DNA of 33,887 nucleotides from positions 1 through 33,887 of IMG/VR virus record IMGVR_UViG_3300032290_000864; one strand, 5' to 3'. Both the position numbers and the translations under genes were made by a program. This document shows positions 2,076 through 21,980 of this stretch, in pieces (the stretch's first letter is position 1; the number at the start of each line of letters is the position of its first letter). The notes beneath the pieces are model-generated. The model saw nothing but the letters and a program-made list of their open reading frames with translations, did no database searches and was not told the DNA's origin. This stretch comes from a virus. Lineage: Duplodnaviria > Caudoviricetes.

Positions 2076-3299
2076 TTACCGACGCGCCCCGGCAATGCGG
2101 TAACGGCCAAATGCTGGCGTGTTGCCAGCTGTTGCTGAAACGGCGCGCACCGCAAACAGATAAAGGAAGCCACCTGTGATGCTGCTGCCGGTCCACGACA
2201 TATTGGTAGACGTGCCCGTTGCTCTGCGAGTAGAGGATAGTGCAAAATATTGTGATGCTGGCGCCAACAACTGCGTGTTAATGCGCGCAGTTTGTCCTGA
2301 TTCCGTCGTACTAAACGTGTTTCCAATTACCGCGCCAAGATCAACAACCAGATCGTTCGTCGCGCTTGTCACCGCTGACGTCCACGGTCCCGTAAACGTT
2401 GTTCCGGTTGCAAGAGCACCGCGTTCCGGCGTTGTCTGATCTGCGTCGAACAGCGATAGCGCCATCAGCAATGGATTTGACCCAGTTGTCCCAACCGCGA
2501 CAACGTTTGCCGTGCCCACGTTTGGCGCAATCACTCGCCACACGCCGCCATCGCCTGACACGTCAGTCATCGCCTGACCATCTCGCGACACACTGGTGGC
2601 AGCATTATCCGTATAGAAGTAGAGCACGCGATTACTGTTAGCAGCAACCGTGACCGACAACGTGCTTGCTCCGGCAACCACTGTCACAAACGCCGCATCA
2701 ACTTTCGGACCATTTTGTGCAGGGATCAACGCCACCGCAATCTGCGCTTGTCTCTGCCCTGAACCGTTGGTCGTCCAGCTGAACGTTGTCGTCGTACCGG
2801 ACGCAGTTTGACGAGACGCCGCGTACATCTTCGGCGTGACGGCAAACGTCGTTGATAGAATGAGCGTCTGCGATCCACCCGCCGTCGCCGTGGCGTTTTC
2901 TTGGATGACGATGAAATCGGAACACAAATCATCAGCGACCGACGTTACGCCGAGTGAAAACGATGTGGCATAGTTTCCGCCCGCCGTTGCACTTCCTCGC
3001 ACTGAATCAATGCCATCGTAATACTCAAGTGTTGCCTGACCATACGTTGCGGCAGAACTGTATGCGAGGGCTAACGACCCAATTGCTGGCGATACCCTTG
3101 AATAGACGCCAACAGCTAGAGAGTCTCCGTTATCCCTCGTTGCAACCGTTGTGACAGCCGTCCCCCCAAGCGTCACAGACGTAGGCGCCGTTCCTGTGGA
3201 AACGGCCAGCTTCACCAGCAAAAACGTGCAACCGGCCGGCACCGTAAACGTGCCGCCGCCGCCGCTGACATCAAGTGTCTCTGCACTCAGATAGCCCAT
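2076..3299 (-). CDS. Thr/Ser/Gly-rich beta protein with two internally duplicated domains, putative fibre tip/adhesin
   Basis: Halves share motifs (VTSVADDLCSD vs VTSATNDLVVD; ASGTTTTFSWT vs ATGTSTNMSWT); lower GC than the flanks. Confidence 0.65.
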   Translation of the reverse strand: MGYLSAETLDVSGGGGTFTVPAGCTFLLVKLAVSTGTAPTSVTLGGTAVTTVATRDNGDSLAVGVYSRVSPAIGSLALAYSSAATYGQATLEYYDGIDSVRGSATAGGNYATSFSLGVTSVADDLCSDFIVIQENATATAGGSQTLILSTTFAVTPKMYAASRQTASGTTTTFSWTTNGSGQRQAQIAVALIPAQNGPKVDAAFVTVVAGASTLSVTVAANSNRVLYFYTDNAATSVSRDGQAMTDVSGDGGVWRVIAPNVGTANVVAVGTTGSNPLLMALSLFDADQTTPERGALATGTTFTGPWTSAVTSATNDLVVDLGAVIGNTFSTTESGQTARINTQLLAPASQYFALSSTRRATGTSTNMSWTGSSITGGFLYLFAVRAVSATAGNTPAFGRYRIAGARR

Positions 3300-4438
3300 T
3301 AAGCGGCACTCTCGTAGTAAAGTTGCGCGATCTGCACAGTCTGATTGACCGGCGGTTGAGTGCCACCACCAAACGTCGGATCAAACCAAAAGTTAGTAAA
3401 CCCTGGTGTCATCAGCGAGCCGAAGAACGCTACCGTGCTCGAGTTAATCACTTGGATGCCGTCTACCCACACTTGCGCGATACCGTCCGCGTTGCCTGCC
3501 GTGCCTGCTTGCAGGATCACTTCGAGGTCGTGCCACTCCCCGTGATTAAACGTCTGCGACGGACTGATAATATTGCTAAACCCCCATCCTGTTGACTGAA
3601 GGTTGACCGAAGTACTGACCTTATCCGTCGCCCCAATAGTCATGTTGACGTAATGGTTGGTCGTTTGACCTGACGCAGACGCTTGCGAAAAGAAGATCAG
3701 TTTCGTGCCAGCGTTGCCGTTGTCCGTCCAATCCGACGATGTCTTGAATCCCATGCGGAAATACAAGCGTGTCGGAACGCCGGTAAAGCTACCAAAGCTG
3801 CCTCGCGCAGGAGCTTGACCCCCTTGCATTCCAACATAGACAGTCGCGCTCCCCGTCATTGTTGCCGTTGCTTTGACGCGGACGTACGCGTATGCGCTTT
3901 TTGTTGCCGCAGAATCAGCAAGCCAATACGCATTGGCGGTCGTGCTGCTGACTGAGGTCATTGACACCGGGTTGTACATACTCAGCGCCGTCCATGTCGT
4001 GCCGTCTGTGCTGTTCTCAAAGCTCAGCGTGCCCGTCCATGTCCCCGTAATTTTGACCGCTATGTTCGTGTACTGGTTTGACGCCCACGGCCACGCCGTC
4101 GTACTCTGCCCGTTGGTCGTGATACTTTCGACCTGACCCGGATACTGCAACTGAAACACCTGCTGCGTCCCCAATGGCGTGACCACTGTAGGGTAGGTGA
4201 CACGCGTCGGCAGCCATGTCTCGCTGTACGCGTTCGGAAAGCCTTGAAAGCCTTGGAAACCTTGAGCCGTCGCCGCTGTGGGATAGACGGGAAGCACCGT
4301 CGCAAACTGCTGCGTCGGATACGTCGTCTTTCCACTCCACGTCGGCGCATTGGCGCCAGCGCCTACAGTCCACCCAGACGGAGGCGGTGGAGGCGCTGTG
4401 CCTGCGGGCCTTGGCTTCCCCATCACAACGCGGCGCAA
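3299..4438 (-). CDS. polysaccharide-lyase-like / ConA-type beta-jelly-roll protein (start may be ATG 4423)
   Basis: LYFRMGFK...W....GTKL, GEWHDLEV...GNADGIAQVWVDG and FWFDPTFGGG resemble PL14-like jelly-roll motifs; N-terminal polyproline linker. Confidence 0.55.
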   Translation of the reverse strand: MRRVVMGKPRPAGTAPPPPPSGWTVGAGANAPTWSGKTTYPTQQFATVLPVYPTAATAQGFQGFQGFPNAYSETWLPTRVTYPTVVTPLGTQQVFQLQYPGQVESITTNGQSTTAWPWASNQYTNIAVKITGTWTGTLSFENSTDGTTWTALSMYNPVSMTSVSSTTANAYWLADSAATKSAYAYVRVKATATMTGSATVYVGMQGGQAPARGSFGSFTGVPTRLYFRMGFKTSSDWTDNGNAGTKLIFFSQASASGQTTNHYVNMTIGATDKVSTSVNLQSTGWGFSNIISPSQTFNHGEWHDLEVILQAGTAGNADGIAQVWVDGIQVINSSTVAFFGSLMTPGFTNFWFDPTFGGGTQPPVNQTVQIAQLYYESAA

Positions 4439-4897
4439 TTATTCCTCGTACGTCAGCGTGCAGCGGACGTTGCTCAACGCCTGCTGGCTGGTCAGTCGCA
4501 CGCCAAGCAGCTTGTTGGTCGCGCCCGCCATCGGCTGCGACGCGAAATCGAACGGCTCGATCAGCGTGCCGCCGACCGGCGTAATGCGCTTCTCGTCGAC
4601 CACCGTAAACGCGGTCGCTTCGGCGCTGTAGTTCACAAAGCCGCTGCACAGTGCCGCCGTCTCCGCAGAGTCGATCGGCACCGGCGTGCGGGCGGTCGCC
4701 GTACCGGCCGCCGTGCCGTCCGACCGCACGATCTCAACTAGCACGCTGCCGTCGGTCGCGGTCACGCTGTCAAAGCTGACCGACACGCCGACCAGCTTGG
4801 CGCGACGGGTTGCCGGCGTGCTCACGGCTGCAATCGTCTTGGCCGTGCTGGCGACCAGCGAAACGTTGGTTTGGGTCGTAATGGTATATCGTGGCAT
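4439..4897 (-). CDS. hypothetical beta-sandwich virion protein (152 aa)
   Basis: Clean ORF, Thr/Ala/Val-rich, tightly packed between neighbours. Confidence 0.7.
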   Translation of the reverse strand: MPRYTITTQTNVSLVASTAKTIAAVSTPATRRAKLVGVSVSFDSVTATDGSVLVEIVRSDGTAAGTATARTPVPIDSAETAALCSGFVNYSAEATAFTVVDEKRITPVGGTLIEPFDFASQPMAGATNKLLGVRLTSQQALSNVRCTLTYEE

Positions 4898-4908
4898 CGT
4901 CTGTCCGG

Positions 4909-5073
4909 CTAAGCGTTAGGGCGCGCCCACCAGACGCACCAGGGAGTCCCGATTGGTCCATCTTCCACAATTGACAGCTCGAGCACCGGAACGCCAGTAA
5001 ACACGCCGCTGTCAATCGCGGACTGCGCGTCGGCTTCCGTCTCGTATGCGCCCATCACGATATTGTCAGTCAT
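4909..5073 (-). CDS. small hypothetical protein (54 aa), not in the ORF track
   Basis: Hand-translated MTDNIVMGAYETEADAQSAIDSGVFTGVPVLELSIVEDGPIGTPWCVWWARPNA*; fills the gap between two genes. Confidence 0.6.
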   Translation of the reverse strand: MTDNIVMGAYETEADAQSAIDSGVFTGVPVLELSIVEDGPIGTPWCVWWARPNA

Positions 5074-5076
5074 CCG

Positions 5077-5682
5077 TCACCCGTAGTATGCGTTCTGCCC
5101 TACGATCTCAAACGGCGATACGTCCTGTATGTCGTCTGTGCAAAAGTTTTCCGTAAACGTCAGAAAATTGTCGCCGCTTGCCGCCGCCGCCGCGCCGTTG
5201 TAGTGCATCGTCACCGTGCCGGCGCCCATCGTGCCCACGTTGATGAGCGACACGGTGACGCGTATCCGCTCGCCCGCCGTAAACGCCGTCGACGTCGGCG
5301 TGAGGGCGGCGGTGCGGGCGGTTTCGGCGGTCGTCAGCTCGGCGCCAATAACCTGCCGCGCAATGACCGTCGACTGCGCCACCCCTGCGTTGTTCGCCCG
5401 CTCGACCAGCAACGCAAACCCCGAGTTGACGCCGTTCGCCGACTCGAGCCCTCGGAGGTTTGGCGTTACCGTCCCGCTAATGGTGACGCCCGACGTCAAC
5501 GGTTCTGAAAAGAACGTCAACGCCTGCCCACCGGCCGTTGCCGTCACTTGAATATTCGTTCCGCTTGCCGTCGACGTGGTTACGGCTGTCGTCACCGCGT
5601 TCCCACGCCGTTGCCCCATCGAAAACTGCCCAGCGCCACCAAGCGTTGAGGCAATGTTGCGGAGAAAGAACGTGGTCGCCAT
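5077..5682 (-). CDS. hypothetical Thr/Ala/Gly-rich virion protein (201 aa)
   Basis: Clean ORF abutting the upstream stop; beta-rich composition. Confidence 0.7.
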   Translation of the reverse strand: MATTFFLRNIASTLGGAGQFSMGQRRGNAVTTAVTTSTASGTNIQVTATAGGQALTFFSEPLTSGVTISGTVTPNLRGLESANGVNSGFALLVERANNAGVAQSTVIARQVIGAELTTAETARTAALTPTSTAFTAGERIRVTVSLINVGTMGAGTVTMHYNGAAAAASGDNFLTFTENFCTDDIQDVSPFEIVGQNAYYG

Positions 5683-6345
5683 CTAGATCTCGTATCCGTA
5701 AACCGTGAGCGTGATCGACTGCGCGTTCGTCGTCGTCAATCGCAACACAAAATCCGCCGTCCCACGGATTGGCGTCGGGAACGTCGCGTAGACGCCAGGC
5801 TTGTTCGTCCCCGACGGCGCGAACTCGCCATCAAACAGCGGCGCGTCGGTGCCTCGCGTATAGGTGGCGTCGGCCGTGCCACCAAACCAGACCTGCGCCG
5901 TACCCGCCGTCGTGCCAAACGACTGAATTTGCATCGACGTGACGATTACCGCCTTGCCCGCCGCTGGCGTCCAGACCGCAAAGCCCGTCTGCGCCGCCGC
6001 AAACGTGACACACTTAAACGTCGCGACGTTCCCGCGGACCCGATCCCACGTTGCCCCGTTATAGCCCATACTGCGGGACAACGTCTGCAACCCGTTCACC
6101 GTGTTCGTTTCGCTGTCCGCTGGCGCCGTGTCAACGGCCACGGCGTTCGTGCCGTCACCGATCTGTACGTTGCCCTGCACCCGCGTCACGTCAACCTTCA
6201 TCCCGTTCGTGCCGTCGCCCGGCGCATCGACGGCCGTGCCGTCGGCGCCGAGCGAGATCTTCACGCGCTGGTGCAGCACGCCAGAGATGTCGTCGGCGGC
6301 CACCGTAGCCCCGACGCCGGGCGTATAGCCTACGTTATCCGCCAT
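5683..6345 (-). CDS. hypothetical virion protein (220 aa), fibre-like N-terminus with 'GYNGATWDRVRG' motif and beta-sandwich C-terminus
   Basis: GAGG SD before ATG; composition typical of phage fibre/decoration proteins. Confidence 0.65.
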   Translation of the reverse strand: MADNVGYTPGVGATVAADDISGVLHQRVKISLGADGTAVDAPGDGTNGMKVDVTRVQGNVQIGDGTNAVAVDTAPADSETNTVNGLQTLSRSMGYNGATWDRVRGNVATFKCVTFAAAQTGFAVWTPAAGKAVIVTSMQIQSFGTTAGTAQVWFGGTADATYTRGTDAPLFDGEFAPSGTNKPGVYATFPTPIRGTADFVLRLTTTNAQSITLTVYGYEI

Positions 6346-21373: not shown

Positions 21374-21401
21374 ACAATACATCGCATTTGCTACGTGTCA
21401 A
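21374..21401 (-). promoter_or_regulatory. putative sigma70 early promoter with AT-rich upstream region
   Basis: TTGACA-16 nt-TATTGT, with A-tracts immediately upstream (21402-21435). Confidence 0.7.
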
Positions 21402-21429: not shown

Positions 21430-21948
21430 TTTTTTCCGCACATAGCGGAGCCATACCCGGTCACCACCGCTTTTCCGGTGACCGTGCGTCGGATCTCTTG
21501 GACCCGTCGACTCTCCGAAAGAGCCGGCAAACGGACTGGCCATCGCATGGCGCTCCTGCCCGCGCTCGCCCGCTCAACGAGTCGCGCCCTCGGAGGGTAC
21601 CTATCGGCCAGGATGTGCGGCCGTGGAACAGCAGCTCGAGCGTTGGTGACCGGCCGGGATGTAGGCTCGACAGCGCCCGGATTGGTGGAACACGCTCGTC
21701 TGGATCGCTTAGGATTGGTGCGCGCAGGGTCCGCATAGCGCAATCGGGAAAGCAACGGTAAGCCCGATCACCCGCCGTCGGTTCTTCGCCTAGACGGGTC
21801 GTACCAACAGTACCGACCGACCGACGGACCCGCAAGACACAAAAAGACCCCAGCGAAGAACTGGAGTCTTTTGCATGGCCGTCTTGCGACGCCACTAGCC
21901 TGTTGCGGACAGAGATCGGCCGGCCGCTTGCGCGCCGTCACCGACCCC
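21430..21948 (-). ncRNA. candidate large structured non-coding RNA (~520 nt), family not recognised
   Basis: Dedicated promoter; more than 10 hand-identified stems; G-U pairs that work only on the minus strand; two GCAA tetraloops; no convincing long ORF. Confidence 0.55.
21836..21872 (-). terminator. intrinsic terminator-like hairpin (end of the lysis operon and/or of a ~110-nt small RNA)
   Basis: AAAAGACUCCAG-UUCUUCG-CUGGGGUCUUUU followed by UGUGUCUU. Confidence 0.7.
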
Positions 21949-21951
21949 CCG

Positions 21952-21980
21952 AATATGCCGCCCAGCGCGCGCGCTGTCAA
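21952..21980 (-). promoter_or_regulatory. putative sigma70 promoter firing into the non-coding region
   Basis: TTGACA (21980-21975)-17 nt-CATATT (21957-21952), starting 3 nt after the holin stop. Confidence 0.7.

What the first reader, a model, noticed from the sequence alone, without database searches (positions are those of the whole stretch)
21781..21948. ~110-nt three-hairpin leader whose loops are complementary to downstream sequence: possible antisense/attenuation switch
Seen: the first ~110 nt after the promoter comprise two GCAA-capped hairpins and a terminator hairpin, so they could be released as a small RNA. The terminator loop region GUUCUUCGC (21861-21853) is exactly complementary to GCGAAGAAC (21789-21781). 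The single-stranded linker UGUCCGCAACAG matches CUGUUG (hairpin loop, ~21810-21805) and UGCGGAC (~21735-21729). CGCAAGAC in hairpin 2 can alternatively pair with GUCUUGCG just past the U-tract. Established: P4 CI RNA and P1/P7 C4 RNA are short RNAs cut from a leader that pair with nearby targets in the same transcript to control immunity without a protein repressor. Inference: an analogous RNA-only switch (copy-number or immunity control), or pseudoknots within the long RNA.
Basis: partly seen in the sequence, partly recalled or inferred. Interest (0 to 1): 0.7.

Follow-up and report, generated by a model that had tools for sequence, protein, structure and literature searches.

The report
Phage RNA origin with separate inhibitor
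This phage has no recognisable replication gene but carries a conserved, uncatalogued element predicted to fold as a knotted RNA, which in close relatives is swapped for a replication-initiator gene, so it likely starts DNA copying, and the short neighbouring RNA flagged here likely switches it off by pairing with its loops.

Summary
The flagged ~108-nt leader (RNA-A) is real, but it is the accessory part of a larger element. A second promoter motif behind its terminator (18 of 18 homologs) would start RNA-B, about 360 nt. RNA-B has 43 distinct homologs, about six covarying pseudoknots and no Rfam match. Two RNA-A/RNA-B contacts co-vary: terminator loop with RNA-B hairpin 1 (permutation 1/5040), and a single-stranded tag with RNA-B hairpin-3 loop (97/362,880). 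The tag covers the bases RNA-B needs for an internal pseudoknot in 17 of 18 homologs. None of 17 near-complete RNA-B genomes has a detectable initiator, primase or replicative helicase. All 11 sizeable relatives examined without RNA-B have an initiator or primosome gene. In one pair with about 90% identical flanks, a rep gene and RNA-B occupy the same slot behind the same leader. Best reading: a ColE1-like RNA-primed origin, controlled by a non-overlapping inhibitor RNA. Priming and inhibition are inferred; no expression data exist here.

The parts
21952..21980 (-). Promoter P1 motif (-35 TTGACA 21980-21975, 17 nt, -10 CATATT 21957-21952)
   Evidence: 10 of 12 matches; a P1 motif in 18 of 18 window-type homologs
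21839..21946 (-). RNA-A, about 108 nt: two GCAA hairpins, single-stranded linker, terminator; predicted trans-acting inhibitor of RNA-B
   Evidence: fold z -3.4; 98-161 nt in 18 homologs; 16 of 27 RNA-A tetraloops are GNRA
21904..21911 (-). Linker tag UGUCCGCA, a mimic of RNA-B's own pseudoknot partner; pairs with hairpin-3 loop 21735-21729
21839..21872 (-). Intrinsic terminator; its loop (21861-21853) is complementary to the RNA-B hairpin-1 loop
21807..21835 (-). Promoter P2 motif (-35 TTGCGG 21835-21830, 17 nt, -10 TACTGT 21812-21807); weak here (6 of 12), up to 9 of 12 in homologs
   Evidence: 18 of 18 homologs; 16 of 18 beat shuffles at 0.05 or below
21440..21801 (-). RNA-B, about 360 nt, multi-pseudoknot RNA without terminator; inferred replication pre-primer/initiator
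21770..21800 (-). RNA-B hairpin 1 with large loop holding GCGAAGAAC (21789-21781); optional (33-34-nt form in 9 of 18 homologs)
21706..21768 (-). P2 helix, pseudoknot PK1 (21754-21750 with 21710-21706) with a covarying third base at 21761 (likely base triple), hairpin 3, invariant CAAUCCU (21717-21711)
21531..21537 (-). Internal partner of hairpin-3 loop (PK2), transcribed about 200 nt after the loop
   Evidence: 6 of 6 pairs with two-sided changes
21444..21465 (-). 3' tail held by three pairings: P6 (21652-21645 with 21458-21465), PK4 (21666-21664 with 21450-21452), PK3 (21574-21569 with 21449-21444)
   Evidence: PK4 42 of 43; PK3 permutation 0/50,000
21374..21401 (-). Promoter P3 motif (TTGACA, 16 nt, TATTGT) for the early genes, preceded by an A-rich tract
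   Evidence: TTGACA-like box visible in most rows of alignment A3

Best explanation
The element is a predicted two-RNA unit that likely serves as the phage's protein-free replication origin: RNA-B likely primes DNA synthesis, and RNA-A likely inhibits it by capturing RNA-B's loops. Shown from sequence comparison: P1-RNA-A-terminator-P2-RNA-B architecture, RNA-B's pseudoknots, co-variation of two A/B contacts, and mutual exclusion and same-slot exchange of RNA-B with rep genes. Inferred steps: (1) host RNA polymerase makes RNA-B from P2 without terminating; (2) the folded body holds the last ~25 nt (P6, PK4, PK3), and the same loops could instead grip the displaced non-template DNA strand, leaving the RNA tail on the template as a persistent R-loop; (3) host RNase H and Pol I (by analogy with ColE1) turn it into a primer, and host restart proteins load the helicase; (4) RNA-A, released at its terminator, first kisses hairpin 1, the first RNA-B loop made, then occupies the hairpin-3 loop during the ~200-nt delay before its internal partner is transcribed, blocking PK2 and priming; (5) loop variants would define incompatibility or superinfection-exclusion groups.
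For: Origin role: complete 33.9-kb phage with no integrase, polymerase, primase, helicase or initiator hit. One RNA-B copy in 17 of 17 near-complete genomes. 0 of 17 hit by nine initiator/helicase query proteins or by PHROG/Pfam scans. 9 of 9 relatives without RNA-B have rep, primosomal or DnaB-type genes. G083 and G084 lack RNA-B and carry a rep gene (phrog_9474, E 3.8e-17; 95% identical copy in G084) between the same flanking genes where G051 has RNA-B. L313 (rep) and L309 (RNA-B) share 87-92% identical flanks and the same leader family, which ends at the rep ribosome-binding site in one and at RNA-B in the other. RNA-B occurs with two unrelated head-gene sets. Terminator-like hairpin after it in only 4 of 43. 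In G050 it is inverted and faces a convergent gene, so it is not a leader for downstream genes. No conserved ORF. Inhibitor role: permutations 1/5040 and 97/362,880 (9/362,880 with accessibility filter); RNA-A covers 5-8 of the loop bases used by PK2 in 17 of 18 and is at least as stable in 12 of 18; where hairpin 1 is small or absent, the terminator loop itself targets hairpin 3 in L008, L012 and L152.
Against: Nothing was measured: transcription, priming and inhibition are all inferred. No ColE1-type repeated tag between RNA body and downstream DNA (30,483/50,000). No antisense promoter (best 5 of 12, in 5 of 18), so control is not ColE1-like in geometry. Contacts are only 6-11 bp. The cognate RNA-A was strictly best in only 5 of 18 single comparisons, and for the window 4 of 9 foreign RNA-As scored as well. 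L005 has neither contact. L155, L157 and L158, left out of the 18, show no clear contact, and L157/L158 differ in terminator loop while sharing the RNA-B 5' part. Loops and groups were set by hand after seeing the alignment. Equilibrium cofolding gives only -3.2 kcal/mol (kissing is not modelled). P2 is weak in the window. Many RNA-B members have no RNA-A. 89 of 90 protein clusters under 100 aa were not scanned and many larger ones have no annotation. Silent-site GC skew is inconclusive.
Confidence: 0.6

Rival explanations
1. Same origin, but RNA-A acts only in cis. Transcripts reading through from P1 or from the upstream lysis operon carry A and B together, and A locks B so that only P2 transcripts prime.
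For: Short contacts (6-11 bp) work more easily in cis. P2 is weak in the window. In the second leader type RNA-B follows a terminator-like hairpin directly, with no spacer in several members.
Against: RNA-A has its own strong promoter and a 13-pair terminator. The tag moves between the 5' hairpin, the linker and the terminator loop in different homologs, which fits a diffusible RNA better than a fixed fold (inference).
Confidence: 0.15
2. RNA-A is an activator or folding chaperone: it holds hairpin-3 and hairpin-1 loops free until their partners are made, or forms a stable A-B complex.
For: Covariation shows pairing, not its sign. In 6 of 18 homologs the internal PK2 helix is stronger or RNA-A has no site, so RNA-A could be displaced.
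Against: Many members lack RNA-A yet keep RNA-B, so it is not required. Known RNA I species of ColE1 and MRB plasmids are inhibitors (PMC5043065, PMC3035462).
Confidence: 0.08
3. RNA-B is an abundant ROOL/GOLLD-like RNA or a processive antitermination RNA for the genome-long operon, with no role in replication.
For: Large, pseudoknotted, phage-only. tRNA gene downstream in L167. All 41 called window genes are co-oriented with it.
Against: Exclusion and same-slot exchange with rep; inverted orientation in G050; no Rfam ROOL/GOLLD hit.
Confidence: 0.08
4. P4 CI / P1 C4-like immunity switch in which RNA-A causes premature termination or blocks expression of the early operon.
For: No repressor or integrase hit in the window; short RNA pairing with two nearby targets.
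Against: Early genes have their own promoter P3 downstream of both targets. The targets are structural loops of RNA-B. No terminator between the targets and the early genes (one search found only the RNA-A terminator on this strand). No Rfam hit.
Confidence: 0.05
5. The B element folds as single-stranded DNA (a primosome or single-strand origin), not as RNA.
For: The link to replication fits equally. Strand polarity from wobble pairs is modest (20 G-U against 11 A-C cells).
Against: Conserved promoter directly upstream in 18 of 18 and directly abutting in L171; pairing with RNA-A loops; likely base triple.
Confidence: 0.04

Closest known systems
ColE1 RNA II / RNA I replicon (PMC5043065, passages read)
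   Same: No plasmid- or phage-encoded initiator; a long non-coding RNA read from a promoter upstream of the origin; a ~110-nt small RNA acting on the 5' part of the nascent long RNA.
   Different: Tailed phage; RNA-B about 300-360 nt with about six pseudoknots; no sequence match to plasmids; RNA-A lies upstream on the same strand and shares only 6-11-nt tags instead of being fully antisense; no repeated anchor tag.
MRB plasmid replicon, RNA I / RNA II (PMC3035462, parts 2-3 of 6 read)
   Same: About 500-bp ORF-free element as the only shared region; loop changes give replicon-specific control.
   Different: MRB RNA I is transcribed from the opposite strand and wholly complementary to RNA II; no sequence or Rfam similarity here.
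ARRPOF, GEBRO, PAGEV motifs (PMC5737381, passages read)
   Same: Structured elements of 223-349 nt tied to replication regions.
   Different: No cmscan hit; those are plasmid-associated.
P4 CI RNA with seqA/seqC (PMC4825925, passage read); P1/P7 C4 RNA (recalled)
   Same: Small RNA pairing by short, separate stretches with targets near its own gene.
   Different: CI is processed from the transcript it terminates and its targets flank it; RNA-A ends at its own terminator and both targets are loops in a downstream structured RNA.
ROOL and GOLLD RNAs (PMC12286853, PMC5737381, passages read)
   Same: Large multi-pseudoknot phage RNAs with covarying loop-loop pairs.
   Different: RNA-B is about half their length, has no Rfam hit, and swaps with rep genes.

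Membership tests
ColE1/MRB RNA-primed replicon | No encoded initiator protein | tested here: met
   (0 of 17 genomes; small ORFs mostly unscanned)
ColE1/MRB RNA-primed replicon | Long non-coding transcript from an upstream promoter that is not stopped by a terminator | tested here: inconclusive
   P2 motif 18 of 18; terminator-like hairpin after RNA-B in 4 of 43; transcript not observed
ColE1/MRB RNA-primed replicon | [quoted passage not shown] | tested here: not met
   no antisense promoter; RNA-A is same-strand and non-overlapping
ColE1/MRB RNA-primed replicon | Sequence or Rfam similarity to the known RNAs | tested here: not met
ColE1/MRB RNA-primed replicon | Upstream RNA loop repeated near the origin, anchoring RNA to the template strand (feature recalled) | tested here: not met
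   permutation 30,483/50,000 and 30,943/50,000
ColE1/MRB RNA-primed replicon | Persistent R-loop, RNase H cleavage, Pol I extension | not testable with these tools
   needs biochemistry
P4 CI / P1 C4 immunity RNA | Match to Rfam models of these RNAs | tested here: not met
   no hit at gathering score or at E up to 10
P4 CI / P1 C4 immunity RNA | Targets on both sides of the small RNA in the same transcript, leading to premature termination | tested here: not met
   both covarying targets lie downstream behind P2; no terminator follows them
P4 CI / P1 C4 immunity RNA | Released by processing from a precursor | not testable with these tools
   no reads available
ROOL / GOLLD / ARRPOF / GEBRO / PAGEV | Covariance-model match | tested here: not met
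   window and 13 homolog loci

The most novel reading that the evidence does not exclude
RNA-B is a catalytic initiator. Its invariant core (CAAUCCU, triple-stranded PK1, bulged P5 helix) clamps the 3' tail between P6 and PK4/PK3 and cuts at the few unpaired bases between them, making its own 3'-OH primer or nicking the captured non-template DNA strand. That would be a ribozyme standing in for a Rep protein, gated by a separately encoded RNA that mimics its pseudoknot partner.
Probability: 0.12. Interest if true: 0.95.

Novelty: new variant of a known kind. Interest (0 to 1): 0.82.

Why it matters
Structured-RNA replicons with small-RNA control are described in the papers read for plasmids (ColE1, MRB). 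Here a widespread group of uncultured tailed phages appears to exchange a rep gene for an uncatalogued RNA at the same locus and under the same leader. That assigns a testable job to a large orphan RNA and helps explain phage genomes that seem to lack replication genes. Control by a non-overlapping RNA that copies the target's own pseudoknot partner differs from cis-antisense control. The natural loop alleles give ready-made specificity controls and possibly orthogonal replicons.

Tried and rejected
Rfam: no hit for the window, two chance hits at E 1.6 and 9, only a tRNA and one chance hit in 13 homolog loci, one chance hit for the L313 leader. ARAGORN found nothing. BLAST to cultured phages and plasmids: only short hits at E 0.2-0.7 or none. 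GTDB genomes: no pattern match and no capsid relative, so no prophage or host was identified; the capsid homolog search gave no usable host. Sequencing runs: no RNA holder was listed. The MFE of the whole 521 nt is uninformative (z -0.85). Pairings of RNA-A with the spacer were rejected. A protein-coding role was rejected: anchor spacing spreads over all three frames (12/14/17), and no frame is open in more than 9 of 43. Second leader type against the hairpin-3 loop: no covariation (163,279/200,000). Direct-repeat anchor: none. Silent-site GC skew is +0.45 in the window and 0.01-0.45 across co-oriented genomes; it is negative only in inverted G050 (-0.04, core genes -0.09), but opposite-strand genes in G035 and G049 do not flip: inconclusive. 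Resemblances to the RNase P P4 helix, the group I intron Q element, group II domain V and the pistol ribozyme are recalled, come from no call, and do not fit the topology. Two misleading hits in RNA-B genomes: a methyltransferase matching the methyltransferase-like part of a primase family (phrog_864) and an SNF2/DEAD helicase-methylase fusion in G042. Literature searches listed no paper describing this element. The supplement search of PMC10690425 found no motif, but 3 of its 6 listed files were not searched and 3 more were too large, so RNA-B could be among its unnamed candidates. Look-ups of earlier scan notes by place and by sequence were empty.

Full report
Context. The window is a complete 33,887-base virus record with terminal repeats. 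It encodes HK97-type head, tail, terminase, lysis, Erf, exonuclease and VRR-NUC proteins. PHROG and Pfam scans of 38 and 31 ORFs found no integrase, repressor, polymerase, primase, helicase or initiator. All 41 genes called by my script lie on the minus strand. The finding sits in the gap between a putative holin (ends 21984; label inferred from position and hydrophobicity) and the early genes, bounded by two sigma70-type motifs at 21980 and 21401.

Observation. The hairpins, the terminator and all four complementarities are present. The 9-nt match is unusual on its own (5 of 5000 shuffles).

Homologs. The Erf search gave 15 loci, 12 of which carry the element. Pattern scans added 10 metagenome loci and 37 viral loci, all 37 confirmed by a covariance model at 57 bits or more. 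A model search of 41 related contigs added five strong hits. Of 60 candidate loci, one was missed by my parser and duplicates were merged, leaving 43 distinct cores down to 40% identity. Patterns were designed on known members, so the set is biased toward them.

Architecture. In 18 of 18 window-type homologs there is a P1 motif, a 98-161-nt RNA-A ending in a terminator, and a second promoter motif 10-29 nt behind the U-tract. Sixteen of 18 P2 motifs beat shuffles at 0.05 or below, and no antisense promoter scored above 5 of 12. Three further homologs with a long 5' extension (L155, L157, L158) were left out of these counts. In the window P2 is TTGCGG-17-TACTGT.

RNA-B. Mutual information on 43 sequences recovered local helices and long-range pairs (38 of the top 70 pairs at least 80% complementary). 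On 18 sequences, a 45-pair structure had 95.2% of cells paired and 29 pairs with two-sided changes. No shuffle of 500 reached that, and slid controls gave 28-44% (one pair was misassigned by me and is unpaired in all 18). These controls ignore relatedness, but several changes recur across clades. Pseudoknots: PK1, with a third covarying base consistent with a U·A-U / C·G-C triple; PK2, hairpin-3 loop with 21537-21531; PK5, P7 loop (97% paired); PK4, complementary in 42 of 43; PK3, only 61% paired in the MAFFT register but 0/50,000 by per-sequence permutation over 21 representatives. A sixth crossing (21698-21692 with 21643-21637, across P6) was seen by eye only. Three pairings converge on the last ~25 nt. 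A terminator-like hairpin follows in only 4 of 43. No ORF is conserved, and Rfam has no match.

RNA-A/RNA-B contacts. Nine of 18 homologs have a 33-34-nt hairpin 1. Over the 7 distinct terminator loops among them, the cognate assignment was the best of 5040, for example an 11-bp match in L148 against a different 8-bp match in its near relative L147. For hairpin 3, nine loop types gave 97 of 362,880, or 9 of 362,880 with an accessibility filter. RNA-A covers the same loop bases as the internal PK2 partner in 17 of 18 and is at least as stable in 12 of 18. The loop is made about 200 nt before that partner. Against this: single comparisons are weak (cognate strictly best in 5 of 18), L005 has no contact, the three omitted homologs show none, and groups were defined after inspection.

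Function of RNA-B. Sixteen other near-complete genomes plus the window each have one copy. Of 756 called proteins in 246 clusters, I scanned 114 of the 115 non-window cluster representatives of 100 aa or more with PHROG and 80 proteins with Pfam. Eighty-nine of the 90 smaller clusters were not scanned. No initiator, primase, replicative helicase, polymerase or integrase appeared. G047 and G049 carry RNA-B with a different head-gene set. Eight of their head relatives and G001 lack RNA-B, and all nine have rep, primosomal or DnaB-type genes. In five of them rep lies between the same two genes that bracket RNA-B in G047/G049. None of the 17 carriers was hit by these proteins. Among 36 loci around a shared early gene, 26 had an RNA-B hit (one partial) and 10 had none. 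Eight of the 10 are short fragments that cannot be judged. The other two, G083 (85% complete, capsid 80% identical to the window's) and G084 (70%), carry a 204-aa rep gene in the slot. L313 and L309 share 87-92% identical flanks and one leader family, followed by rep in one and by RNA-B in the other. G050 has RNA-B inverted, behind its own promoter motif and facing a convergent gene.

Mechanism and comparison. A non-coding transcribed element that replaces an initiator gene, needs no shared phage protein and has no terminator works like ColE1 RNA II, where a persistent hybrid is trimmed by RNase H and extended by Pol I and a 110-nt RNA blocks folding (PMC5043065, passages). MRB plasmids give the same logic with loop-specific control (PMC3035462, parts 2-3 of 6). 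It is not a member of either family: no sequence match, no antisense RNA I, and no repeated anchor tag. The idea that RNA-B loops grip the non-template strand is my inference; covariation cannot tell RNA-RNA from RNA-DNA pairing. P4 CI acts through seqA and seqC flanking it to cause termination (PMC4825925, passage), which does not match here. ROOL/GOLLD (PMC12286853, passages) and ARRPOF/GEBRO/PAGEV (PMC5737381, passages) gave no model hit. PMC10690425 was seen as a search listing and a partial supplement search only. Earlier AI notes of this scan propose RNA origins in other phages. They prompted the repeat test and the swap test but are not evidence, and sequence look-ups found no overlap with this family.

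Verdict. Origin role about 0.75; trans-inhibition by RNA-A given that role about 0.75; joint about 0.6. New variant of a known kind, interest 0.82.

Noticed in passing
L160, L161, L163, L172, L175-L178, L181, L184, L186, L188, L154, L156 (about 120-190 nt upstream of RNA-B); L313:2905-3030: A second uncatalogued leader: a hairpin whose loop kisses a bulge in a long hairpin ending in a U-tract (10 distinct loops, 0/200,000). It precedes either RNA-B or a rep gene, so it is a candidate replication attenuator. No real Rfam hit.
   Followed up: partly
L162, L168, L170, L193: RNA-B starts a few bases after a stop codon, with no leader or promoter evident.
   Followed up: no
L155, L157, L158 (about 170 nt before the core): RNA-B has a long extra 5' hairpin domain; the RNA-A contact is unclear.
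   Followed up: partly
L154 and L156, just upstream of RNA-B: A hairpin with a tRNA T-loop-like sequence lies between leader and RNA-B.
   Followed up: no
L306:4540-4840: RNA-B variant with a conserved 5' half and a divergent 3' half that still ends in the conserved tail motif, followed by an ORF with an HNH-like motif (seen by eye).
   Followed up: no
window, all genes: Very strong, uniform G-over-C skew at fourfold-degenerate sites (+0.45). It is 0.33-0.45 in 6 of 7 window-type genomes and in G027, but 0.01-0.10 in most genomes with the other leader or none.
   Followed up: partly
L167:3361-3431: tRNA gene about 90 nt downstream of RNA-B.
   Followed up: no
L004, L007, L146, L148 downstream of RNA-B: Inverted repeat overlapping the P3 -35 box, a possible operator.
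   Followed up: no
window 2076-6345 versus G009: Four tail-region proteins are 64-93% identical to those of G009, a phage with different head genes and a rep module: recent module exchange.
   Followed up: no
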